This document shows positions 10,336-50,310 of a DNA stretch of 64,000 nucleotides, in pieces. How positions within the stretch are numbered: the first letter of the stretch is position 1; every line of letters begins with the position of its first letter. A model generated the notes under the pieces. It saw nothing but the letters and a program-made list of their open reading frames with translations. It had not been told where the DNA came from and did not search any database. The translations under genes were made by a program, and so were the position numbers. Source of the stretch: Squalus acanthias (Eukaryota); contig CM059432.1 of the NCBI GenBank assembly GCA_030390025.1, positions 28,832,001 to 28,896,000 of the forward strand, in the 5' to 3' direction.

Positions 10336-11740
10336 GAAATGTTTGACAAATTTGCTGGAGTTCTTTGAGGAAGTAACACACAGGGTGGATAAAGGGGAAC
10401 CAGTGGAGGTGGTGTATTTAGACTTCCAAAAGGCATTTGACAAGGTGCCACACAAAAGATTATTGCTTAAGATAAAAAATCACGGGATTGGGGGTAATAC
10501 TCTGGCATGGATAGAGGATTGGCTATCTAACAGAAGGCAGAGAGTTGGGATAAATGGTTCATTCTCAGACTGGCAATCAGTAACTAGTGGCGTTCCGCAG
10601 GGGTCAGTGCTAGGTCCCCAACTCTTTACAATCTATATTAACGATTTGGAGGAGAGGACCGAGTGTAACATATCAAAGTTTGCAGATGATACTAAGATGG
10701 GAGGGAAAGTAGTGAGTGAGGAGGACATAAAAAATCTGCAAGGGGACATAGACAGGCTAAGTAAGTGGGCAGAGATTTGGCAGATGGAATACAATACTGG
10801 AAAGTGTGAGGTTATGCACTTTGGCAGGAAAAATAGTAGAGCAAGTTATTATCTAAATGGCAAGAAACTGGAAAGTACTGAAGTACAAAGGGATCTGGGG
10901 GTCCTGGTGCACAAAACTCAAAAGGTTAGTATGCAGGTGCAGCAAGTGATCAAGAAGGCCAATGGAATGTTGGCTTTCATTGCTAAGGGGATAGAATATA
11001 AAAATAGGGAGGTATTGCTTCAATTGTACAAGGTATTGGTGAGACCACACCTGGAATACTGCATACAGTTTTGGTGTCCATACTTAAGAAAAGACATATT
11101 TGCTCTCGAGGCAGTACAAAGAAGGTTCACTCGGTTAATCCCGGGGATGAGGGGATGGACATATGAGGAGAGGTTGGGTAGATTGGGACTCTACTCATTG
11201 GAGTTCAGAAGAATGAGGGGCGATCTTATTGAAACATATAGGATTGTGAAGGGGTTGGATCGGGTGGATGCGGGGAGGATGTTCCCGATGATGGGTGAAA
11301 CTAGAACTAGGGGGCATAGTCTTAGAATAAGGGGCTGCTCTTTCAAAACTGAGATGAGAAGGAACTACTTCACTCAGAGGGTGGTAGGTCCATGGAATAT
11401 GCTGCCCCAAAAAGCTGTAGAAGCTACATCATTACATAAATTTAAAACAGAAATAGACAGTTTCCTAGAAGTAAAGGGAATTAAGGGTTACGGGGAGCGG
11501 GCAGGAATTTGGACGAGTCTAGGTTCGGATCGGTCATGGCCCTGTGGGTAGCGTAGCGGGCCCAGGGGCCGTGTAGCCTGATCCTGCTCCTATTTCGTGT
11601 CCCCAATTCTGTTAGGTTCAGGAGATGGTTCTGTGATAGTAGATTGGCGGTTAGGATCAGATATGATCTTATTGAATGGCGGAGCAGGCTCAAGGGGCCA
11701 ATTGGCCTACTCCTACTCCTATTTCTTATGTTCTTATGTT
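10336..11740 (+). mobile_element. Young 5'-truncated CR1 LINE with an uninterrupted 402-aa RT ORF and an extended 3' UTR
   Basis: ORF 10343-11551 (YLDFQKAFDKVPH, GVPQGSVLGP, FADDTK); (ttcttatg)n tail at ~11723-11740. Confidence 0.93.
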
Positions 11741-29545: not shown

Positions 29546-32500
29546 AAGAACATAAGAAATAGGAGCAGGAGTAGGCCAATCGGCCCCTCGAGCCTGCTCC
29601 GCCATTCAATAAGATCATGGCTGATCTGATCCTAACCTCAAATCTAAAGAACACAAGTAGGAGGAGCAGGACCCGGCCACTCAGCCCCTGGGCCCGCTAC
29701 ACCACCCACAGGGCCCTGACCGATCCGAACTCAGCCTCATGTCCAATTTCCTGCCCGCTCACCGTAACCCCTAATTCCCTTTACCTCTAGGAAACTATCT
29801 ATTTCGGTTTTAAATTTATTTAATGATGTAGCTTCCAGAGCTTCCTGGGGCAGCAAATTCCACAGACCTACTACCCTCTGAGTGAAGAAGTTTCTCCTCA
29901 TCTCAGTTTTGAAAGAGCAGCCCTTTATTCTAAGATTATGCCCCCTAGTTCTAGTTTCACCCATCCTTGGGAACATCCTTACCGCATCTACCCGATCAAG
30001 CCCCTTCACAATCTTATATGTTTCAATAAGATCGCCTCTCATTCTTCTGAACTCCAATGAGTAGAGTCCCAATCTACTCAACCTCTCCTCATATGTCCAC
30101 CCCCTCATCCCCGGGATTAACCGAGTGAACCTTCTTTGTACTGCCTCGAGAGCAAATATGTCTTTTCTTAAGTATGGACACCAAAACTGTACGCAGTATT
30201 CCAGGTGCGGTCTCACCAATACCTTATATAACTGCAGCAATACCTCCCTGTTTTTATAATCTATCCCCCTAGCAATAAAAGCCAACATTCCGTTGGCCTT
30301 CTTGATCACCTGCTGCACCTGCATACTAACTTTGATTTTCTTGCACTAGGACCCCCAGATCCCTTTGTACTGCAGTACTTTCCAGTTTCTCGCCATTAAG
30401 ATAATAACTTGCTCTCTGATTTTTCCTGACAAAGTGCATAACCTCACATTTTCCAATATTGTATTGCATCTGCCAAATCTCCGCCCACTCACCCAGCCTG
30501 TCTATATCCCCTTGTAGGTTTTTTATGTCCTCCTCACTTTCTACTTTCCCTCCTATCTTTGTATCATCTGCAAACTTTGATATGTTACACTCGGTCCCCT
30601 CCTCCAAATCGTTAATATAGATTGTAAAGAGTTGGGGACCCAGCACCGACCCCTGCGGAACACCACTGGCTACCAGTCCGAGAATGAACCATTTATCCCA
30701 ACTCTCTGCTTCCTGTTAGATAACCAATCCTCCACCCATGCCAGAATATTACCCCCAATCCAGTGATTTTTTATCTTGAGCAATAATCTTTTATGTGGCA
30801 CCTTGTCGAATGCCTTCTGGAAGTCTAAATACACTACATCCACTGGTTCCCCTTTATCCACCCTGTACGTTATGTCCTCAAAGAACTCAAGCAAATTTGT
30901 CAGACATGACTTCCCCTTCATAAAGCCATGCTGACTTTGTCCTATTAAATTATGTTTATCTAAATGTTCCGTTACTGTCTCCTTAATAATAGACTCCAAA
31001 ATTTTACCCACCACAGATGTTAGGCTAATTGGTCTATAATTTCCAGCCTTCTGCCTACTACCCTTTTTAAATAAGGGTGTTACATTAGCAGTTTTCCAAT
31101 CTGCCAGGACCTTTGCTGAGTCCAGGGAATTTTGGAAAATTACCACCAAAGCATCCACAATCCCTACTGCCACTTCCCTCAAGACCCTAGGATGTAAGCC
31201 ATCAGGTCCAGGGGATTTATCCGCCTTGAGTCCCATTATTTTACTGAGTACCAATTCCTGAGTGATTTTAATCATATTTAGCTCCTCCCCCCCTAGAGCC
31301 CCCCGTCTGTCCAGTGTTGGGATATTCTTAGTGTCCTCTACCGTAAAGACAAACAAAATATTTGTTCAGCATTTTTGCCATCTCCATGTTTCCCACCATT
31401 AATTTCCCGGTCTCATCCTCTAAGGGACCTACGTTTGCCTTAGACACCCTTTTTCATAGAAACATAGAATCTAGGAGCAGGAGTAGGCCATTCGGCCCGT
31501 CGAGCCTGCTCCACCATTCAATACGATCATGGCTGATCATCCAAATCCAGTACCCTGTCCCCTGGTTTAATCCCCACAGTACACATATCCCACCCTACCC
31601 CCGTAACCCCACGTATTTAATTCCCCCTAACATATCCCATCCTAACCCCATAACCCCACATATTTAATCCCCCTCTAACACTAAGGGTCAATTTATCATA
31701 GCCAAATCAACCTAACCCGCACATTTTTGGACTGTGGGAGGAAACCGGAGCACCCGGAGGAAACCCACGCAGACATGGGGAGAATGTGCAAACTCCTTTC
31801 TTTTTATATAACTATAGAAACTCTTGCTATCTGTTTTTATATTTTTTGCTAATTTATTTTCATAATCTATCTTCCCTTTCTTAATCAATCCTTTAGTTAC
31901 TTTTTGCTGTCTTTTGAAGACTTCCCAATCTTCTATCCTCCCACTAAGTTTGGCTACCTTATATGTCCTTGTTTTTAGTCAGATACTATCCTTAATTTAT
32001 TTACTTAGCCACGGATGGCTGTCATTTCTTTTACACCTTTTTTCCTCAGTGGAATATATTTCTTTTGAAAGTTGTAAAATAATTCCTTAAAAGAACACCA
32101 CTGCTCATGTACCGTCTTACCCTTTAATCCATTTTCCCAGTCCACTTTAATCAATTCCGCTCTCATACCATCATAGTCTCCTTTATTCAAGCTCAGTACG
32201 CTTGTTTGAGAACCAACCTTCTCACCCTCTAATTGGATATGGAATTCAACCATGTTATGGTCACTCATTCCAAGGGGATCCTTAACTAGGACATTATTAA
32301 TTAATCCTGACTCATTACACAGGACCAGGTCCAAGGTTGCTTTCCCCTTTGTAGGATCAGTTACATACTGCTCAAGAAATCCATCCCTAATACACTCAAT
32401 AAACTCTTCCTCAAGGCTGCCCTGCCCAATTTGATTTGTCCAGTTAATATGATAGTTAAAATCCCCCATAATTATAGCTGTTCCCTTATTACATGCCCCA

Positions 32501-39353: not shown

Positions 39354-39594
39354 GTGTACCTGTAGGATTTAGTAAACATTAAGATTCTATAACCATTTTT
39401 ATATAACTATAATGTGAAATTGTATATTAAAAATCTAAAAGCCTGTATAAAATGGCGAATGGCTGAGCGCAAAGCAGGATGGGAAATTATGCCAACCTGA
39501 CTAAAAAAAAACCTGTGTTTTTAATTACTGAAGTAATGGAATGTAGTGCTAAGTCTATGGAGACTGGTGGGGGAACGAGGAATTTGGTAATATT

Positions 39595-39663
<69 letters not shown>

Positions 39664-40241
39664 AGTTGGAGACATCCCTCATTGGTACAGCTATAGGATG
39701 AACTGATTGTTTAGACAACATCTTGAGAAATGGTCTGTGAAAAGTGAACATCTAAAGATAAGGGCACTTTGTTATGCACAGAGAAAGACCTAGTGGGATT
39801 AACAAGGTCATAAGATGTCATAAGATGGCTAACGAGGGAAGCGAGACATTTACCGGGTGTCAGAGGGCTAATTACTGCCATGTAGGCAAAACAAGGGGAA
39901 AAAGGGTATAAAGGTACAGGTTTTGAACACCAAAAGCAGCGCACCATGTAACCAGAGTTTGAGAAGCTTCAGTCAACAGAACACAGCAAGAACCCAGAGA
40001 AGCGAGCTTCAGTCAACAGAACACACCAAGACACATCAGGAGACTGCGCCACAGTCACTTGGAAGGAACGCCGGGGTTTGAATGAACAGACTGTGACTAT
40101 CTTCTTGTTAAGTATTACTTCTTTGAACTGGATGTTTAATGCTTAATAAACCTGTCTTACTTATGCACAATATACCTGTACCCAGAGTATAGTGTTTGTG
40201 TAGTCACGGACAAATTATTGTAAGAGCTTTTGAAAGCTACA
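39354..40241 (+). repeat. 5' LTR
   Basis: Direct repeat of 49461-50310; ends in ...CTACA; TATAAA at 39907-39912, AATAAA at 40145-40150; (GA)n expansion at ~39600-39658. Confidence 0.95.
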
Positions 40242-40244
40242 AAT

Positions 40245-40262
40245 TGGCGCCCAACGTGGGGC
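40245..40262 (+). promoter_or_regulatory. Primer binding site, tRNA-Lys1,2
   Basis: TGGCGCCCAACGTGGGGC, 3 nt after the LTR end; this is the known Lys1,2 PBS (foamy viruses, MPMV, visna). Confidence 0.95.
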
Positions 40263-40389
40263 TCAACTATTAACTGAAACCAGGTCTATTGCGCATAAGG
40301 CAGGTGCTTGGATTTTCGTCTGATCAACGAAGGTCCTTGTGGAAGGTTAGGTTATCAAACAGATAGTGTCTCTTTCACGTACAGTAAGA

Positions 40390-42274
40390 ATGTTGAGTGA
40401 GAATTTTTTTTATAGACTTTAAAAAGTGAAATTAATGAAGAAGTATGAGGATGCACAGTTGCAGACGTTAATAGTAGAATGTCTAACAAAGGATGTGAAA
40501 GTATCTTTCGAGGACGTTGTTGCGTTCATTGAAAAACAAGTTAAGGAGAAGAGATGGAAGCCGGATAGGGCAGAGCAGCTAATGGCTTATGCGGCAGTGT
40601 ATTGTGTAGAACAAGATAAATAAACCTTCCTAGAGATGGAAGATGATCAGGATAAATGAGAAAAAGACAAACTACAAGAGAATCGAACGTTAATGGGCGA
40701 GAAGTCAAAATGGGAGAAAGAAGCTGTAGAGTTAAAAAATAAAGAATGAAGTTCTTCAGGGACTGGTCGGTGCTTCAACAACAATAATGTAGCAACAGAG
40801 TATTAACACAGTTCACGCCGGCGCTGCAATGCAGAATCTTGGAGGCTAAAAGCCAAGTAGCCTTTTTAACAAAAGACCATGACCGTCTGATCAGCCAATG
40901 AAATGATTCACGAGGAGCCCCAAGAAAGGCTCTTCAGCGCCCCCACAGGGAGTTAGACCACCGGCAATGCCAGAATACTATACAACAATTAGAGAAACAG
41001 TTGGGTAAACAACGGGCTGTAATAGCAGCAGTCACGGGAATAGACCCCCCCCGGGAGTTACGATCAACAATGCGAGGGGTTAAGCGGAGAGCTATGTTCT
41101 CCTTTGATATCCCCTTCCCGAGATGCCCCCGTCTCGTATGCCACCATCGACTTGGCTGAGAGGCCCCAGCCTATGCTAATAACAATATCATAAAAACCTC
41201 AGTGGACGAGCCTGCACCTGTTAAAGCCCCGGTTAATGTTCTGACCCGCACCCAGGTGATTCCCAACGCGCCACCAGCACCAGCAGCTGAGGGTGAAGGG
41301 GCACAAGCAGTACCACCAGCGGCAGGCCCCCCGGGAATGCTGTGGGCAGGCACTTATGAACGGTCCCAGCCCCTGAATTATGCAGAACTACAAGCATGCG
41401 TCCAACAATTCGGACCAGTTAACCCACGAACATGCCCTATAGAGCTAAGGCAACGTATAGTGGCATTCCGGAATTACCACCCTAATTTTGAGAACAGTGA
41501 CATGAAAAATGTTATACTGTCTGCCTTGACTCCGGACCAGTCTCCCATTCCTGGCCTTTAATGTGGGAAACACCCTGAATAACTTAATCACATACATACA
41601 AACAGCTCTAGGCTTGGATACTATTGATTTGGTCCAGAAATTAAACCAGACCCAACAAGGGCCTCATGAGACCCCTGCTGCATTCGGGGATTGGTTGTAC
41701 ACTGTTTGAGATGATGCAGGCACGCCCCAATGATGATGTCTTAAACAGGAAGAATGAGGCAGCATTTAAGAAAATATACTTAAAGAATATTCAGACCTCA
41801 CTGCGAGCAGCCTTAGGGCACACTGTCAGCCACAACTCGCAATGGACAGACATTTAAAGAGACGCTAATTCTGCATGGGCCTGCGCTAAAACTCAGGTCC
41901 AGGCACCAACAACAGAAACGCCAGTGAATGTAGTTGAGGGACCCCAGGCCTCTCCAGCGTCAAACCCCCGTAGACAACCGTTCATATGTTATAACTGCGG
42001 GAAGATGGGACACTTTGCGAAGGATTGCCGAGGTCCTAGACAAACAAGCTCTGGAGGTGGGAGGAAGAATAATAATTACCCGCGATATGGTCCGTCCCGT
42101 TCACCCCATCCAGTGGATAGTAGGCTAGACGCCATTGACTCACGTATTGAGAGAATGTCATGTATGATGCAGACACTTGCAGGGACCCAGATGTCAGGGT
42201 GCCCTGTGGCCCCAACTATGAACTCGTTATTCCCGCCTCCACCATTGCCACAACAACTCAATGGCCCACAATGA
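40390..42274 (+). pseudogene. gag: ERV gag (disrupted): charged/coiled-coil N-terminus, capsid-like region, single CCHC zinc knuckle
   Basis: ATG at 40390 in frame with ORF 40426; CYNCGKMGHFAKDC in ORF 41924-42274; multiple stops and frameshifts. Confidence 0.85.
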
Positions 42275-45200
42275 CGGGGTCCGGCCCCATCGGCCTGGTC
42301 GGAAGTGGGGTTCAGTCGAGACGGCCATGGTCGAAAGGTGGTCTCAGCTTTGCTGCCTGGGGGCAGACAGCAGACTGTTAATAGACACTGGGTCATCTGC
42401 ATTCCCCAGACGCCAACTTGAAATAGGCAAAAGTAGCTTCGTCATAACAGGAGTCACCGGTGCACAAGCACCAGTATACCCAGGGGAAGAACTTCGTATT
42501 TCCCTTGAGGCCTTCCCTGTAAAAATTACCGATCCATTGTACATAAGAACATAAGAAATAGGAACAGGAGTAGGCCAATCGGCCCCTCGAGCCCGCTCCG
42601 CCATTTAACAAGATCATGGCTGATCCGATCCTCACCTCAAATCTAAAGAACACAAGAAGTAGGAGCAGGACCCGGCCACTCAGCCCCTGGGCCCGCTATG
42701 CCACCCACAGGGCCTCGACCGATCCGAACTCAACCTCATGTCCAATTTCCTGCCCGCTCCCCGTAACCCCTAATTCCCTTTACTTCTAGGAAACTGTCTA
42801 TTTCTGTTTTAAATTTATTTAATGATGTAGCTTCCACAGCTTCCTGGGGCAGCAAATGCCACAGACCTACTACCCTCTGAGTGAAGAAGTTTCTCCTCAT
42901 CTCAGTTTTGAAAGAGCAGCCCCTTATTCTAAGATTATGCCCCCTAGTTCTAGTTTCACCCATCCTTGGGAACATCCTTACCGCATCCACCCGATCAAGC
43001 CCCTTCACAATCTTATATGTTTCAATAAGATCGCCTCTCATTCTTCTGAACTCCAATGAGTAGAGTCCCAATCTACTCAACCTCTCCTCGTATGTCCACC
43101 CTCTCATCCCGGGGATTAACCGAGTGAACCTTCTTTGTACTGCCTCGAGAGCAAGTATGTCTTTTCTTAAGTATGGACACCAAAACTGTATGCAGTATTC
43201 CAGATGCGGTCTCACCAATACCTTATATAACTGCAGCAATACCTCCCTGTTTTTATAATCTATCCCCCTAGCAATAAAAGCCAACATTCCGTTGGCCTTC
43301 TTGATCACCTGCTGCACCTGCATACTAACTTTTTGATTTTCTTGCACTAGGACCCCCAGATCCCTTTGTACTGCAGTACTTTCCAGTTTCTCGCCATTAA
43401 GATAATAACTTGCTCTCTAATTTTTCCTGCCAAAGTGCATAACCTCACATTTTCCAATATCGTATTGCATCTGCCAATTGTGTATGACAAATAGAATGGG
43501 AATACTTGGGCATGATACCCTAAGGGGAATGACAGCCATTATAGATTACAATCAAAACGGTTTATGGATTGAATCTAAACCGGGAGACAGAGTGCAAATT
43601 TCAGATGCCCACTCGGTGTTAGCTATAAAGAAGCCTGAGCAGATTGCGCTGCCGACACATTCCCTGCCTCCTTAGTGGCTAAACATGTAGCAGCCTTTGC
43701 TAAATCTAAACACAACTGCGGGAGAATGGAAGGGGAAACACGAATTAATGGGCCACCCCATCGTGCATGTAAACAATACCCGATTCCCCGGGAAAATATT
43801 CCATATTTGCGAAGAGTCATTGCCTCATTAGAAGAACAAGGAGTACTGCGCAAAGGTTCGTTTACCACTAATTCCCCTGCATGGCCGGTTAGGAAGCCAG
43901 AAGAATCCTGGAGGCTTACTATTGATTACCGAGCCCTAAACGAAGCTTCCCCACGTCAGAGTCCAACTGTTAGTCAAGCCCCTTCGCTATTGACATCCAT
44001 ACCCACCAAGGCCACTGTCTTCTCTACCCTAGACATAGCGAATGGTATTTGGAGTATTCCAGTTGCCCAGGAGGACCAATACAAATTTGCTTTCACGTTT
44101 GAAGGGCAGGGCTACACGTTTACGTGTTTACTGCAAGGGTTTCATAACTCACCATCAATCTTTCATCAATATATGGCACAAGCAGTTAAAGACTTCTCTA
44201 AACCATCAGCCCTTCTACAGTATTTTGACAACCTGTTCCTTGCTACTGAAACAATGGAAGAACACCTATAACTTCTAGATGAGTTGATAGGGTTAGTACA
44301 GAAGGCAGGGCTGAAAATAAATCCAAAAAAGGCTCAGCTGGCAAAAGATGAGGTTACCTTTCTGGGAGTAAAGATTTCAGCGACTGGCCTCAGTCCGGAC
44401 CATCAAAAAGGTAGAAACTATTCAGAGACTTCCACAGCCAGTTTCAAAGACAGCACTGCGATCCTTTTTAGGCTTGGTTGGATATCAGCGAAATTTTATT
44501 CCGAACTTTGCAGACTTGGCTAAACCTTTGTATGATCTTTTAAAGGGCGATGCGGAAGAAGTACAATCCGTATGGGAAGACCACCATACTGCTGCAGTTA
44601 GTGCCTTGAAACAAGCAACGATGCAGGCTACTGCTCTCATTTCCCCAGCCCAGTCAGCCCTTCCATCTTGAAGTAGGCTCCACCCCTACCAGCCTAACTG
44701 CCATTTTAAGTCAGAACCAAGCAATCAGCGAGACACTACGCCCCATCGCGTATGCCTCACGTATCTTATGAGGGGTAGAAAGCACATTCTCAGCGTGTGA
44801 GCGCCACCTGTTGGCCACATTTTGGGCAGTCAATCATTTTACTTACATCACCGGACTACAGAAAGTGATTTTGCATTCACCACACACGCCCTTTAATCTG
44901 CTGCTAAAACCAAGTGAGACTAAGGTGTCCTCTCAGCGAATCAGTAAATGGACACTTGAATTGTTACAGCGAGACCTGGACATTACTCCTAAACGAACTA
45001 CACTGTTACCCCTTATGCTCGTCTATGAGGGAAACCCACACCAGTGTCCATTACCAGTACTAGATATGGAACCAAACCCGGTAAAGGCTACTGCTATACC
45101 TGGAGCTCGAAATGTGTATGTAGACGGATCATCATACTATGTAGACGGCCATCCTAGAACTGGATGTGCCCTCATTGATATGGACGCTCCCGATTGGTCA

Positions 45201-46873
45201 GTGGGATTCCAGGTTCCCGCCCAACAAGCAGAACCAATTGCTGTAATTCTCGCTGCACACTACACGACTACGGATGAAACTAATATCTGGTCCAACAGCA
45301 GCTACGTTTTCAATGCAGTCATGGTCCTTCCCCTATATATCATACAAATGAGTTTTGCTCATCAGATTGTAAATCTTTATTACATTCTGGTCTCCTCCGT
45401 AAGCTATGGAAAGTGCTCCAGGAGCGAGTCGCCCCTTGTCATGTGGGGAAGGTAGCAGCCCATCAGAAAGATTCATCCCCCCACTCCCGAGGTAACCAAG
45501 CAGCCGATCGCCTTGCTAAAGAGGCTGCCGACAACGGCAATCCATTACCTTGGTGGGTGATGAATGACACTCAGACACCCGTAGTGGGAGCGGTTACCAA
45601 AGTCAAAACCATTGATCTTTTGGCCCTACAGGATTCACACGCTCCCTATGCGCAAGTAATAGCCTGGCATGAACAAGGACGCCCACTACCAGCACCCACC
45701 CCATGGGCAGACTCAACTGAAGTACAACATAGTGCAGTTAAAAACCCTCCCCTGCTCATGGTCAGGAATAAAGAGGGAGACTTAGTAGTTTGTATTCCTC
45801 CCCAATTGAAGAAATTCTGGCCCTCTTCCATTCTTACCTGACAGCGGGACATTACTCAGCAGCCACTACACTACAAAAGTTATTACCTGTTTACTGGTGG
45901 CCTGAAATGGAGCAGCATGTGGAGCAATATGTTAATCGCTGCCTGCCATGCCTATAAACCCTCCTTCATGTTCTAATCGCGCCTTACTTAGGTCGCAGCC
46001 CCCTCCCGAGGGACCATGGACACACCTACAGATTGACTTTATTGGTCCGCTAACAAAATCCAAGGGTAACTAGGAGTACGCGCTCGTTGTAATTGATCAG
46101 TTCACGAAATGGATCGAGGCGTTTCCCCAGAAGAAACAATAAAGCGCGCACTGCTGCCCGAATTCTCCTGAGTGAGGTGTTCTGTAGGTGGGGATTACCA
46201 CCACAAGTGGATAGTGATCAGGGTCCACACTTTACGGGGGCAGTTTTCACAACCCTACAAGAAATGTTATAGATAAAACATAAATTTTACATTGCGCACC
46301 ACCCACAATCATCAGGGATTGTGGAGAGGGGAAATCGGACTCTAAAAACAATGCTGCAGAAGCTGTGTACAGAACACCCCACTCAGTGGACTAACATGTT
46401 ACCCTTATGTTTAATGACAATACGTTCTACCCCACACGGGACTACGAGGGTAAGTCCATATGAGGCTATGACTGGGAGACAAATGCGGATACCAGGACAT
46501 GTAACATTGGGGAATAATACACCATTAAAGTTACAACCTTGTAGCCAAAAATGGTTACAAACCTTGATAGATCATATGGACGAGGTGAACAGGCTAGTGG
46601 CCATTAACATAGGCAAATCGCGTGAACAAATCAAGCGATATTATGATTAAAGGGTAAAATTATTTGAGTATGACGTTGGAGACAGAGTAATGTTACAAAA
46701 TTTCTCTCCAAAAAAAAAACAAACACTCATTCGAGGTAAAATGGACAGGCCCTCATACCATAGTAGATAAATTAAATCCAACTGTGTATCTACTGAATGT
46801 TCCATATGGTCCGAAGGGAGAACCTAAACTGAAATGGTTCCATATCAATCAGATGAAAACTGTTAAGAATTAA
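42275..46873 (+). pseudogene. pol: ERV pol (disrupted): protease, RT, tether RNase H, RNase H, integrase
   Basis: Protease LIDTGS and GILGHD; RT NSPAWPVRK..WRLTIDYRALN, QGFHNSP and YFDN (44221-44232); tether RPIAYASR..CERHLLA; RNase H YVDGSS..GNQAADRLAK; integrase GH..WWPEM..CLPC, LQIDFIGPL, SDQGPHF, HPQSSGIVERGNRTLK, and WTGP/KWFHINQMK at the C-terminus. Confidence 0.93.
42541..43477 (-). mobile_element. Young 5'-truncated CR1 inserted in the ERV protease gene
   Basis: ORF 42736-43347; near-identical to 29546-30477; TTGT duplicated at both junctions. Confidence 0.93.
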
Positions 46874-46906
46874 GATGTTACATTCTGGTCTACCCACAGG
46901 TCAAAG

Positions 46907-49373
46907 ATGTGGCTCTGTATACTGATATTGATGATTGGATGTGCAGTGAGCTCTGCGGAGGTAACAAAAGCTTTTGACATTACCATTAACATCTGTACAC
47001 CGGATGAAGGAGGCGAATGCACCCCACTCCCCATCTATGGAACGGAACTTCAAATCGTTGGCGGACATAAACGATCAAAGAACCATAATGGTTCATCTGA
47101 GACATATTGGGGGGGGGGGTGTTCCGGTTTGGATCAGAAACAGTACAAAAGATAATATAACAACATATGTGATGGGTTGTGGTACACTACAAGGAAAGGT
47201 GTATAGTTGGGAAATAAAAGAAGGATATGGTGTATGCATCAGGTGTGGGATAAGGGACAGCAAAGGCTCAAATGTGTGGAAATTCCGGAAGGAAAATAAT
47301 GGAATCTGGGAACAGGTACAAGAATCAAACCAGGGCCCAGTAGCTTCAGAAAGCAAGGAATATATACAATTATGCTGGCCTCGGTGGTGGAAGAAACATA
47401 CCGGCCAGTATTCTTGTATTGGGTCAAATATTATCATGGGCTTTAAAAATCAGGATGATGATTGGCCTCCTATCCCCGAATATGATATAAAGATTACCTC
47501 AGCAGGAAATTATATTCCCGGAGATGATATAAAGATCACCTCGGCAGAGAATAAACCCTTTGACAACCTTTAAATGTTGGGGAAATTATAGGGATCCCGA
47601 GAATAAAGATAGCAGCATAGTAGAATTCAAAAATGCGTTAACTGGATGTGTAAGGGAAGATGGGTATTTCTATAGTGTTGGGCTCACACCCTATGAGAAA
47701 ACAAACCATTCAGAACCCCAAGAGGGAGTACTCGAGAAACAATGTCCCCATTTAAAACCGGGACCTGGGAATGGTCTTGTAATTATCCCTACCTATAAAG
47801 TAGTGTATCATCAAGTAATCCTGGAAGTGGCCAGTTATGCTCAATTTAACAGAACTAATACTACCAACGTGGTGCCCTGACAAAACAGCACAATTAACTC
47901 AAAGAATGCTGCAGCAGGTTTTTAGCCAATACTGGGAAAAGGCGACTTTGTCGACAAGCATAGAGAAAACAGAAGGGGCTTTCCGCCATGAGCTTAGTAC
48001 CACTCAAGAGGACAGCCAGGGAAAGAGTAGGCGGAGAAGAGGATTGATAAATGATGGGCTCACAGGTTTCAACACAGTATCATCAGTAATTAACTCAATG
48101 GACTCTGCAGATTTACAGAAACAATTACAAACAGTAAGGGAAAAATTGAAGGAGATACTCAGTAAGGAAAATAACATAGTAAGTGAGGAGCTAAGGGAAG
48201 ATCAGGTAATGACCATACACCTGCGGGATATCATACACGAGATAGAGGATCATGCCAAAAGAATTAATGATCTGATTAGAGAAAACAGAAATGCCTTGGA
48301 TCAAGAAGCCCATAATGACGTATGCGTTATGTACGGGAATTGGCTGATTGAACAAACTAGGGAAAACCTTCAGAGCATCAATAAGGGACTTCTCCCCACT
48401 TGGGTCACTAACATCTGTCAGGGCTGTCCAGTTATTACGATGAAAAATTATGTAAGATCAGGAGTTTAATTAGGATCCACCCTGTCAAACACAATGCCAC
48501 GAGGTAGGGAGTCAAAGGTTGATGGGATTAATACTGCAAATTCCTAGTCTAATGAATCAAACCAGGCCCAACCCCCTATTTAGAATAGAAAATATAGGAG
48601 TAGTAAAAGGAAATACTATTAACCGATTTCTCATGGCACCACAATGGTTAGTACAGCTAGAAAAACTAACATGGATTGAACCAAACCTACAAGGATGCAG
48701 TACAAATGAGGATGCCCTGGTTTGCCCATACAGTTTATACGACCATTCAAAAGGACACCTGTGGATATGGTTGGAATAAAGAAAGGTTAAACTGTACTAT
48801 GGAAGTGACAGGCCCCTCAGATGTAAGGACTAGAACAGCCTATGTACGAGAAGGAAAGTATTGTTTTACCACCTTAGAAAACTCTTAGTCACGGAACACT
48901 TGAATGTTCAATAACCCCAGGGACCTACTGTATTACCCCTACAAAGACTATGGTAGTAGGAGGAAGAATTCTCCTCGCAATAGCCTCACATGGCCAACAG
49001 GTACTACAAGTGGAAGATGATTTAAAAATAAATCTAGAAGATTATGTCACTAAATTCGGATATGATATCCCTGAGCTACCTGAAGCATTAACCGAACTAA
49101 TAAATCAAGTGAGTACCTCCCAACGCCATTATTATACACTGGTGCAGGGGAATAAAGCCATAGCCGAGGAGATTCCAGATATCGAGGTCCGGACACACTG
49201 GTGGGAAATATGGAAATATGGAAATCCCTCCTTGGATTAGAATAATTTCCCCTGTACTGGTCATAGCCCAACTCATAGTACTTACATGCTTACTACTATA
49301 CACCTGCTACCTGAAACACCTAATGCACGAAACCCAATCGCGTTTAAATATGATTACAGCCCAGAACATTTAA
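46907..49373 (+). pseudogene. env: ERV env (disrupted): signal peptide, Ig-like module, furin site, heptad-repeat and Cys-rich F-type ectodomain, TM
   Basis: Splice acceptor cccacag|G at 46899; signal peptide MWLCILILMIGCAVSS; RRRR furin site at 48029-48040; TM IISPVLVIAQLIVLTCLLLY at ~49240-49300. Confidence 0.85.
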
Positions 49374-49460
49374 GAGTTACATAAACGTGGGAAGACAAAC
49401 CCATATGTAAGATTTTAGTTTTGAGGGGTCGGCAAATGCCTCGCCCTCAAGGTAGGGATC

Positions 49461-50310
49461 TGTAGTGTACCTGTAGGATTTAGTAAACATTAAGATTCTA
49501 TAACCATTTTATATAACTATAATATGTGAAATTGTAGATTAAAAACCTTAAAGCCTGTAAAAAATAGTGAATGGCTGAGAGAAAAGCAGGATGGGAAATT
49601 ATGCCAACCTGACTAAAAAAAAGTGTTTTTAATTACTGAAGTAATGGAATGTAGTGCTAAGTCTATGGAGACTGGTGGAGATGAGGAATTTGGTAATATT
49701 ATGCTTAGAGATAAGAACCAGAGAGAGAGACAGGAATTGGAGACATCCCTCATTGGTACAGCTATAGGATGGACAGACTGTTTAGACAACATCTTGAGAA
49801 ATGGTCTGTGAAAAGTGAACATCTAAAGATAAGGGCACTTTGTTATGCACAGAGAAAGACCTAGTGGGTTTAACAAGGTCATAAGATGTCATAAGATGGC
49901 TAACGAGGGAAACGAGACATTTACCAGGTGTCAGAGGGTTAATTACTGCCATGTAGGCAAAACGAGAGGAAAAAGGGTATAAAGATACAGGTTTTGAACA
50001 CCGATTGTAGCACACCACGTAACCAGAGTTTGAGAAGCTTCAGTCAACAGAACACAGCAAGAACCCAGAGAAGCGAGCTTGAGTCAACAGAACATAGCAA
50101 GACACAGCAGGAGACTTGCGCCACAGTCACTCGGAAGGAACGCCGGGGTTTGAACGAACAGACTGTGACTATCTTCTTGTTAAGTATTACTTCTTTGTAC
50201 TGGATGTTTAATGCTTAATAAACCTGTCTTACTTATACACAATATACCTGTACCCAGAGTATAGTGTTTGTGTAGTCACGGACAAATTATAAGAGCTTTT
50301 GAAAGCTACA
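49461..50310 (+). repeat. 3' LTR
   Basis: TGTAG...CTACA termini (5-bp inverted repeat); preceded by the purine-rich aaggtaggga (PPT); AATAAA at 50217-50222. Confidence 0.95.

What the first reader, a model, noticed from the sequence alone, without database searches (positions are those of the whole stretch)
46907..47560. Ig-like domain and short tandem repeat at the Env N-terminus
Seen: after the signal peptide (frameshift in the G-run at ~47108-47119) the frame reads V-C-I-R-C...VWKFRK...YIQLCW...HTGQYSC. This fits the Ig B-strand Cys, C-strand Trp and 'DxGxYxC' pattern. A duplicated peptide follows (YDIKITSAGN / DDIKITSAEN, ~47481-47552). Inference: a captured host Ig-superfamily module could act as a receptor-binding or immune-decoy domain fused to an F-type fusogen, an unusual envelope architecture.
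Basis: partly seen in the sequence, partly recalled or inferred. Interest (0 to 1): 0.75.

Follow-up and report, generated by a model that had tools for sequence, protein, structure and literature searches.

The report
Ig-like head on shark retroviral envelope
A dead retrovirus copy, apparently from a shark-like fish, has a broken envelope gene whose front end is predicted to fold like an antibody domain and likely served as the cell-attachment part of a probable measles/RSV-type fusion protein; the short repeat behind it occurs once or twice in sister copies.

Summary
Observation confirmed. 46907-47573 is the start of a broken env in a decayed LTR provirus (39354-50310) of an abundant family; all 10 env relatives looked up come from cartilaginous fishes. 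The Ig reading holds through several weak, agreeing lines. Skate Env models carry the homologous segment (E 9e-7) with a canonical DEGxYxC, in the same protein as the fusion core. Their joint profile hits Ig-superfamily chains (18 of 24 PDB hits). A modest AlphaFold model (pLDDT 58) matches Ig domains (Z up to 7.1). The core is probably F-type (a relative's poor model hits paramyxovirus F0, E 2e-6). A second shark clade has a dissimilar Cys-rich module in the same slot, which fits an exchangeable receptor-binding head. The 14-aa duplication is real but variable: one-unit contigs occur in 7 of 7 contig runs. Host capture is not shown; neuroplastin/basigin is only a sub-threshold lead. Binding and decoy roles are untested. 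Both parts have precedents (Ig-type binding domains on other retroviral Envs; F-type Env in loki- and foamy viruses); I did not find the combination in print. This scan noted it at least six times before on other DNA of this genome.

The parts
39354..40241 (+). 5' LTR (carries an expanded GA microsatellite at 39600-39658)
   Evidence: K2P distance to 3' LTR 0.053 over 841 ungapped sites
40245..40262 (+). primer-binding site, tRNA-Lys type (tRNA assignment recalled)
   Evidence: the same 18-mer occurs once in the lokiretrovirus supplement
40390..42274 (+). decayed gag with CCHC zinc knuckle (start approximate)
   Evidence: zf-CCHC E 5e-8; stop codon TGA at 42272
42275..46872 (+). decayed pro-pol (protease-like, RT, tether RNase H, RNase H, integrase), interrupted by a LINE fragment on the minus strand at about 42534-43477
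   Evidence: RVT_1 E 1e-17, RT_RNaseH 5e-7, RNase_H 3e-5
46880..46899 (+). putative env splice acceptor (pyrimidine-rich run ending CAG)
   Evidence: sequence; function inferred
46907..46957 (+). Env signal peptide (hydrophobic N-terminus; cleavage point judged by eye)
46958..47108 (+). N-terminal segment of about 50 aa before the G-run, no family assigned
   Evidence: searches give no match
47109..47119 (+). 11-G run where the env frame is broken; its length differs among sister contigs
47184..47450 (+). predicted Ig-superfamily (I/V-set-like) domain: Cys 47244, Trp 47277, Cys 47415; two extra Cys (47235, 47373) shared with skate relatives
47469..47552 (+). two 42-nt (14-aa) units in the linker behind the Ig-like domain; one or two units in sister copies
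47734..48028 (+). start of the conserved envelope core (CPxxxxGPGNGLV segment onward; F2-like by inference), broken by a frame change
   Evidence: E 5e-9 to P0005
48029..48040 (+). RRRR furin-type cleavage site, followed by a fusion-peptide-like segment and long heptad-repeat region
48041..49373 (+). F1-like part with Cys-rich region, second heptad repeat and transmembrane anchor; several frame changes and stops
49465..50310 (+). 3' LTR

Best explanation
The segment is the broken N-terminal part of an endogenous retrovirus envelope gene, predicted to fold as one Ig-superfamily domain that likely served as the receptor-binding head in front of a probably paramyxovirus-F-type fusion core. In the working virus, Env would have been made with a signal peptide (probably from a spliced RNA), cut at the RRRR site, and shown as a trimer with the Ig-like domain on a flexible linker outside the F2-like part; binding by the head would bring the virus to the cell and help release the fusion core (inferred from foamy Env and coronavirus spike, PMC11468914). 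The domain is an old part of one Env clade of cartilaginous fishes (shown: shared with skate gene models, covered by sister contigs in six coded organisms), most likely taken long ago from a host cell-surface gene (inferred; donor not identified). The 14-aa duplication is a length change in the linker, present once or twice among copies (shown). This copy is dead (shown: about eight frame changes and several stops in env). Step odds: Ig-type fold 0.85; integral to Env 0.9; F-type core 0.85; attachment role 0.6; host origin 0.65.
For: Homologous segment in skate Env models P0005 and P0017 (BLASTP E 9e-7), which also match the window's core and C-terminal pieces (E 5e-9; E 9e-16). Three-sequence profile: 18 of 24 PDB hits are Ig-superfamily chains, the top 10 all so, best single-domain E 0.005. 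Pfam Ig_3 is the only family hit, in 3 of 3 members, below cut-off. All-beta model; Ig domains fill nearly all 50 VIA rows, best Z 7.1, rmsd 2.9, 81 aligned; Foldseek top rows neuroplastin, V domains and basigin. Single contigs run from the Ig-like domain towards or into the core (X9 record 28, 47300-47790; X8 record 19, 47304-47703). A relative's model hits a fish paramyxovirus F0 (E 2e-6, 555 columns) and toro/nidovirus spikes first. 4 of 15 relatives carry all or part of a different Cys-rich module in the same slot, with no profile similarity (probability 0.2%).
Against: Model pLDDT only 58, from three sequences of which two are near-identical; no Foldseek match at E<=0.001; Z under 8 can reflect a common beta arrangement. 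Only 1 of the 15 core relatives shows the Ig-like segment, and the skate proteins are automatic, partly spliced gene models whose DNA I did not see. No host protein was found by sequence among database proteins. The env-core model has pLDDT 37 and TM-scores near 0.1; Pfam and PDB sequence searches gave no F hit. No binding data exist.
Confidence: 0.6

Rival explanations
1. The domain is Ig-like and part of Env, but is a spacer, shield or immune-modulating decoy rather than the attachment module.
For: Ig folds serve many roles; best look-alikes include immune and adhesion receptors such as CD8 alpha and CRTAM. No binding test exists.
Against: Single copy at the distal N-terminus of Env, the slot where F-type scaffolds carry binding modules (PMC11468914 passages), and exchanged for another folded module in a sister clade. 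Similarity to any one host receptor is far too low to show mimicry.
Confidence: 0.17
2. The Ig-like domain binds receptor but was not captured from the fish host by this lineage; it came from another virus or is ancestral to these Envs.
For: No host donor detectable by sequence; extra conserved Cys and a W-x-x-WW stretch are unlike canonical host domains.
Against: Host structures match the model better (E 0.006) than any viral model in BFVD (best E 0.066); the canonical B-F Cys pair and DxGxYxC are kept, whereas the Ig-like RBD-C of gamma-type Env lacks that disulfide (10.1101/2024.03.17.585361).
Confidence: 0.13
3. The segment is a Cys-rich beta domain that only resembles Ig by chance, or a piece of the F protein's own Ig-like domain II.
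For: Every Ig score is sub-threshold; atlas scores of 0.86-0.93 are also reached by some shuffled proteins. F domain II has an Ig-superfamily fold.
Against: Independent skate sequences keep Cys, Trp, G-x-Y-x-C and add the canonical Asp; profile, language-model and fold searches all point to the same superfamily. The segment is continuous, lies before the conserved core, and is replaced in relatives whose core is homologous, whereas domain II is built from separated pieces.
Confidence: 0.1

Closest known systems
Lokiretrovirus Env (Wang and Han, PMC7947760)
   Same: gag-pol-env LTR element with tether plus RNase H; Env with signal peptide, basic cleavage site, fusion peptide, coiled coil, TM and F-like similarity; same 18-nt primer site found once in their supplement.
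   Different: No Ig-like head is described in the three of four text parts read; their screen found none in 6 of 6 cartilaginous-fish genomes; RT placement not tested here.
Foamy virus Env (Fernandez et al., PMC11468914)
   Same: Retroviral Env on an F-type (class Ib) scaffold with its own receptor-binding module; this element's RT is nearest foamy Pol among solved structures (E 3e-29 against Ty3 3e-17, MLV 2e-14).
   Different: Foamy RBD is a large domain of its own fold inserted inside SU; here a roughly 90-aa Ig-like domain sits N-terminal, as in coronavirus spike. Gag here has a CCHC knuckle (absent in mammalian foamy Gag, recalled).
Ig-type RBDs of orthoretroviral Env: RBD-C of MLV/FeLV/EnvP(b)1 and the SIRP-derived IgV RBD (Hotzel, 10.1101/2024.03.17.585361)
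   Same: N-terminal Ig-type domain joined to the rest of Env (by a Pro-rich linker in type-C Env); domains exchanged between Env lineages; one shown captured from a host gene, with the B-F disulfide.
   Different: Those Envs are gamma-type or alpha-like, not F-type; the SIRP donor is clear from sequence, here no donor is.
Neuroplastin/basigin membrane-proximal Ig domain
   Same: Best single-sequence PDB hit (E 0.37, residues 13-109) and top four Foldseek rows (E 0.006-0.011).
   Different: Below significance, the two searches share sequence signal, and neuroplastin is not among the 24 hits of the profile that includes the skate sequences.

Membership tests
Ig superfamily (I/V-set) | B-strand and F-strand Cys about 55-75 residues apart | tested here: met
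   Cys46 and Cys103 of P0001, invariant in 3 of 3 aligned sequences
Ig superfamily (I/V-set) | C-strand Trp 10-15 residues after the first Cys | tested here: met
   Trp57, 11 residues after Cys46, invariant
Ig superfamily (I/V-set) | D-x-G-x-Y-x-C before the F-strand Cys | tested here: inconclusive
   Window has H-T-G-Q-Y-S-C (Asp missing); skate relatives have D-E-G-I-Y-M-C
Ig superfamily (I/V-set) | Two-sheet beta-sandwich with Ig topology | tested here: met
   All-beta model, pLDDT 58; Z 5.8-7.1 to Ig domains over about 80 residues; modest confidence
Ig superfamily (I/V-set) | Score above a curated Pfam Ig cut-off | tested here: not met
   Ig_3 13-14 bits against cut-off 30
F-type (class Ib) fusion protein | Signal peptide, furin site, fusion peptide, heptad repeats, Cys-rich region, TM in F order | tested here: met
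F-type (class Ib) fusion protein | Detectable homology to paramyxo/pneumovirus F | tested here: inconclusive
   Foldseek E 2e-6 to a paramyxovirus F0 from a pLDDT-37 model of relative P0007; no Pfam or PDB sequence hit
Lokiretrovirus | RT groups in the lokiretrovirus clade | not testable with these tools
   No reference RT sequences were held; viral-contig scan found none. RT nearest foamy Pol in PDB
Lokiretrovirus | Tether plus RNase H dual domain | tested here: met
   RT_RNaseH and RNase_H in tandem; shared with retroviruses generally
Lokiretrovirus | F-like Env | tested here: inconclusive
   not diagnostic since foamy Env is F-like too
Lokiretrovirus | Integrase close to CGIN1 | not tested
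   No tree built
CmiERV lineage I / snakehead-retrovirus-like | Pol groups with snakehead retrovirus | not testable with these tools
   No reference sequence held; this element's primer-site string was not found in the CmiERV supplement (line breaks could hide it)
Host-captured RBD (SIRP-like case) | Clear sequence match to one host gene family | tested here: inconclusive
   No significant donor; these searches are insensitive at this distance

The most novel reading that the evidence does not exclude
An F-type retroviral envelope of cartilaginous fishes captured the membrane-proximal Ig domain of a basigin/neuroplastin-type host gene and uses it as an exchangeable receptor-binding cassette, swapped against a dissimilar Cys-rich module in a sister clade: a retrovirus that built a coronavirus-spike-like layout from a host gene.
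Probability: 0.2. Interest if true: 0.72.

Novelty: new variant of a known kind. Interest (0 to 1): 0.48.

Why it matters
F-type fusion scaffolds are thought to gain attachment modules either inside (foamy Env) or at the N-terminus (coronavirus spike). A retroviral family in sharks and skates with a small N-terminal Ig-like head, and a sister clade with a different head on the same core, would be a natural series for that idea and a second case of Ig-domain recruitment by Env, on another fusion machinery than the known one. It also extends F-type retroviral envelopes to cartilaginous fishes, where the lokiretrovirus screen found none. This particular copy is a decayed fossil and the repeat is minor.

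Tried and rejected
No whole genome is held, so copies in the host assembly and shark IgSF genes could not be searched. Word-index searches with the window peptide and with the three-sequence profile, both among longer proteins only, found nothing beyond three skate proteins. BFVD gave no match for the Ig model at E<=0.001. The whole-Env model of relative P0007 was poor (pLDDT 37): the fold of the second clade's module stays unknown and VIA hits were generic helices. RT scan of viral contigs found no relative; the env alignment had no stretch conserved enough for a locus scan. No RNA holder listed; raw-read run X22 laid no reads, which is no test. Contig depth was not used to rank gene parts. 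A five-residue match between the pre-G-run segment and neuroplastin (seen) was not backed by a search of that segment and is treated as chance. Considered and rejected: a one-off host insertion in this copy (sister contigs and skate models have it); the repeat as a conserved functional motif (one-unit copies are common, and the skate linker is different); F domain II as the source of the Ig signal. PMC9972966 (foamy-type ERVs of cartilaginous fish) is not held. PMC10072453 passages concern CD4 Ig domains, not Env.

Full report
Setting. The finding lies at the start of the env gene of a decayed LTR provirus. Two LTRs at 39354-40241 and 49465-50310 align over 891 columns, with K2P distance 0.053 over 841 ungapped sites; that is 12 to 120 million years for the mammalian rate and the ten-fold lower shark rate used in PMC4422223, so only a rough age. 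A primer-binding site follows the 5' LTR. Pfam finds a CCHC knuckle, RT, a tether-type RNase H and a second RNase H; a LINE fragment interrupts the protease region. Env runs from ATG 46907 to about 49373 with about eight frame changes and several stops, by my reading of the three-frame translation. A search with the 216-aa piece around the RRRR site found 15 relatives; I looked up 10 and all 10 are from sharks or skates of seven genera. The host is therefore taken to be a cartilaginous fish (inference); no genome is held.

Observation. The G-run is 47109-47119. The window lacks the Asp of DxGxYxC. The duplication has a 14-aa period, 33 of 42 bases alike, above the shuffle maximum (34 against 28 in 200 shuffles).

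Is it an Ig domain? Alone, the window peptide gives only weak hits: Pfam Ig_3 E 0.12, neuroplastin E 0.37 over residues 13-109, atlas scores 0.86-0.88 to Ig clusters, 9 of 10 named hits in one clan. One of the 15 relatives, a skate protein (P0005), has a homologous segment (E 9e-7); a region search added a near-identical second skate protein (P0017) and a partial third. The alignment keeps both canonical Cys, the Trp, G-x-Y-x-C, and three further Cys; the skate rows read DEGIYMC and have an I-set-like start (the I-set reading is from my own knowledge). The profile hits 24 PDB sequences at E<=10, 18 of them Ig-superfamily by name, the first ten all so. The skate segment scores 0.90-0.93 in the atlas, 10 of 10 named hits in one clan, a pattern the tool says a third of shuffled proteins also give. 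AlphaFold gave an all-beta model of pLDDT 58. VIA ranks NCAM Ig1 (Z 7.1, rmsd 2.9, 81 aligned) and CD147 (7.0) first, nearly all 50 rows are Ig-type, none reaches Z 8. Foldseek has no match at E<=0.001; its first four rows are neuroplastin chains (one identified from my knowledge of entry 6a69), with basigin at ranks 10, 19 and 25. No line is decisive; together they make an Ig-type fold likely (about 0.85).

Is it part of Env? P0005 holds the Ig-like segment, the GPGNGLV segment, the cleavage site and the membrane-proximal part in one predicted protein, and P0017 links the segment to the GPGNGLV part. These are automatic gene models, P0005 visibly skipping the middle of env, so splicing cannot be excluded. 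Contigs from public runs cover the whole region: 389, 313 and 400 laid in three runs and 48, 43, 150 and 12 in four more, from six coded organisms; one raw-read run laid none. Single contigs bridge the second half of the domain and the start of the core (X9 record 28, 47300-47790). So the domain belongs to the family, not to this copy. Some contigs have larger deletions across it, as expected of decaying copies.

The repeat. Contigs that skip about one unit occur in all seven contig runs (table 5); contigs holding both units occur too (X2 record 11; X9 record 29). The skate linker is a different, Pro/Thr-rich sequence. The repeat is a length variant of a linker. The G-run also differs in length among contigs.

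The core. Order of features fits an F-type protein. Pfam and PDB sequence searches gave no F hit. A low-confidence model of the shark relative P0007 (pLDDT 37) hits a fish paramyxovirus F0 first (E 2.3e-6, 555 columns, 15% identity), then an insect-virus glycoprotein and torovirus and nidovirus spikes; TM-scores are near 0.1, so this is a linear match, not a superposition. It bears on the window through homology (P0007 E 2e-13).

A second head. Four of the 15 relatives (P0007, P0015, P0010, P0016) carry all or part of a roughly 100-aa Cys-rich module in the same place before the core. It lacks the Ig spacing pattern and shows no profile similarity beyond a CxxC (probability 0.2%); the profiles are shallow, so very distant kinship is not excluded. 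Two different heads on one core is what one expects of a receptor-binding slot (inference). The other relatives are too short at the N-terminus, or are mispredicted there, to tell.

Mechanism. Shown: anatomy, breaks, family-wide presence, repeat variation. Predicted: Ig fold, F-type core. Inferred: attachment role and host origin. In passages of PMC11468914 the F protein is described as a minimal scaffold that takes receptor-binding modules at its N-terminus (coronavirus spike) or inside (foamy Env), and binding is proposed to pull a linker and free the fusion peptide. The same logic fits here. A decoy role cannot be excluded but nothing points to it. The donor is not identified: searches of the protein collection found no host protein; neuroplastin/basigin is a lead only.

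Known work. PMC7947760 (three of four text parts read; supplement searched by term, file cut when stored) describes F-like Env in lokiretroviruses, mentions no Ig head in those parts, and lists 0 positives in 6 cartilaginous-fish genomes. 10.1101/2024.03.17.585361 (first of eight parts and passages; supplements not available) reports modified IgV RBDs in gamma-type Env, RBD transfer between Env lineages and capture of a SIRP IgV domain by an alpha-like Env; 'shark', 'paramyxo' and 'cartilaginous' do not occur in it. PMC4422223 (first of two parts; supplement term search) and PMC5512871 (passages) describe shark ERVs by Pol, without Env domain detail in what I saw. 10.1101/2023.10.26.564294 (passages) has no occurrence of 'immunoglobulin' or 'shark'. 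Searches (listings) showed no paper on an Ig domain in an F-type retroviral Env; subscription journals are largely missing and PMC9972966 could not be read. The lineage stays open: RT is nearest foamy Pol among solved structures, the primer site recurs in the lokiretrovirus supplement, and no RT tree could be built.

Earlier notes of this scan. Six findings on other DNA of the same genome report the same layout; they are not independent support. One calls the element snakehead-retrovirus-like rather than loki, which I could not test. One says the arrangement is undescribed for retroviral envelopes; the Hotzel preprint shows Ig-type heads are described for other Env types.

Verdict. Real feature, Ig reading likely right, capture and function unproven. 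New variant of a known kind; interest 0.48.

Noticed in passing
window 42272-42300: Gag ends in TGA followed by CGG, and the same frame goes on into a protease-upstream-like peptide; UGA-CGG is a recalled readthrough context, so Gag-Pol may have been made by UGA readthrough.
   Followed up: no
window 42534-43477 (minus strand): A CR1/L2-type LINE fragment sits inside the protease region, about 92% alike to copies at 10777-11514 and 29546-30333; it inserted after the provirus.
   Followed up: partly
P0007, P0015, P0010, P0016 (N-terminal about 100 aa): A Cys-rich module of unknown fold occupies the head position in a second shark Env clade; no Pfam family, model confidence too low.
   Followed up: partly
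window 47575-47735: About 55 aa between the repeat and the conserved core (CWGNY...CVREDGYFYSVG) has no counterpart found in the skate protein; may be a further small variable module.
   Followed up: partly
window 39600-39658: A (GA)29 microsatellite has expanded in the 5' LTR only; the 3' LTR has a short GA run there.
   Followed up: no
P0004: A sawshark gene model named 'Niban 1-like' begins with about 250 aa of this Env family, probably a misjoined prediction or an exonised provirus.
   Followed up: no
window 46880-46899: Likely env splice acceptor seven bases before the env start codon.
   Followed up: no
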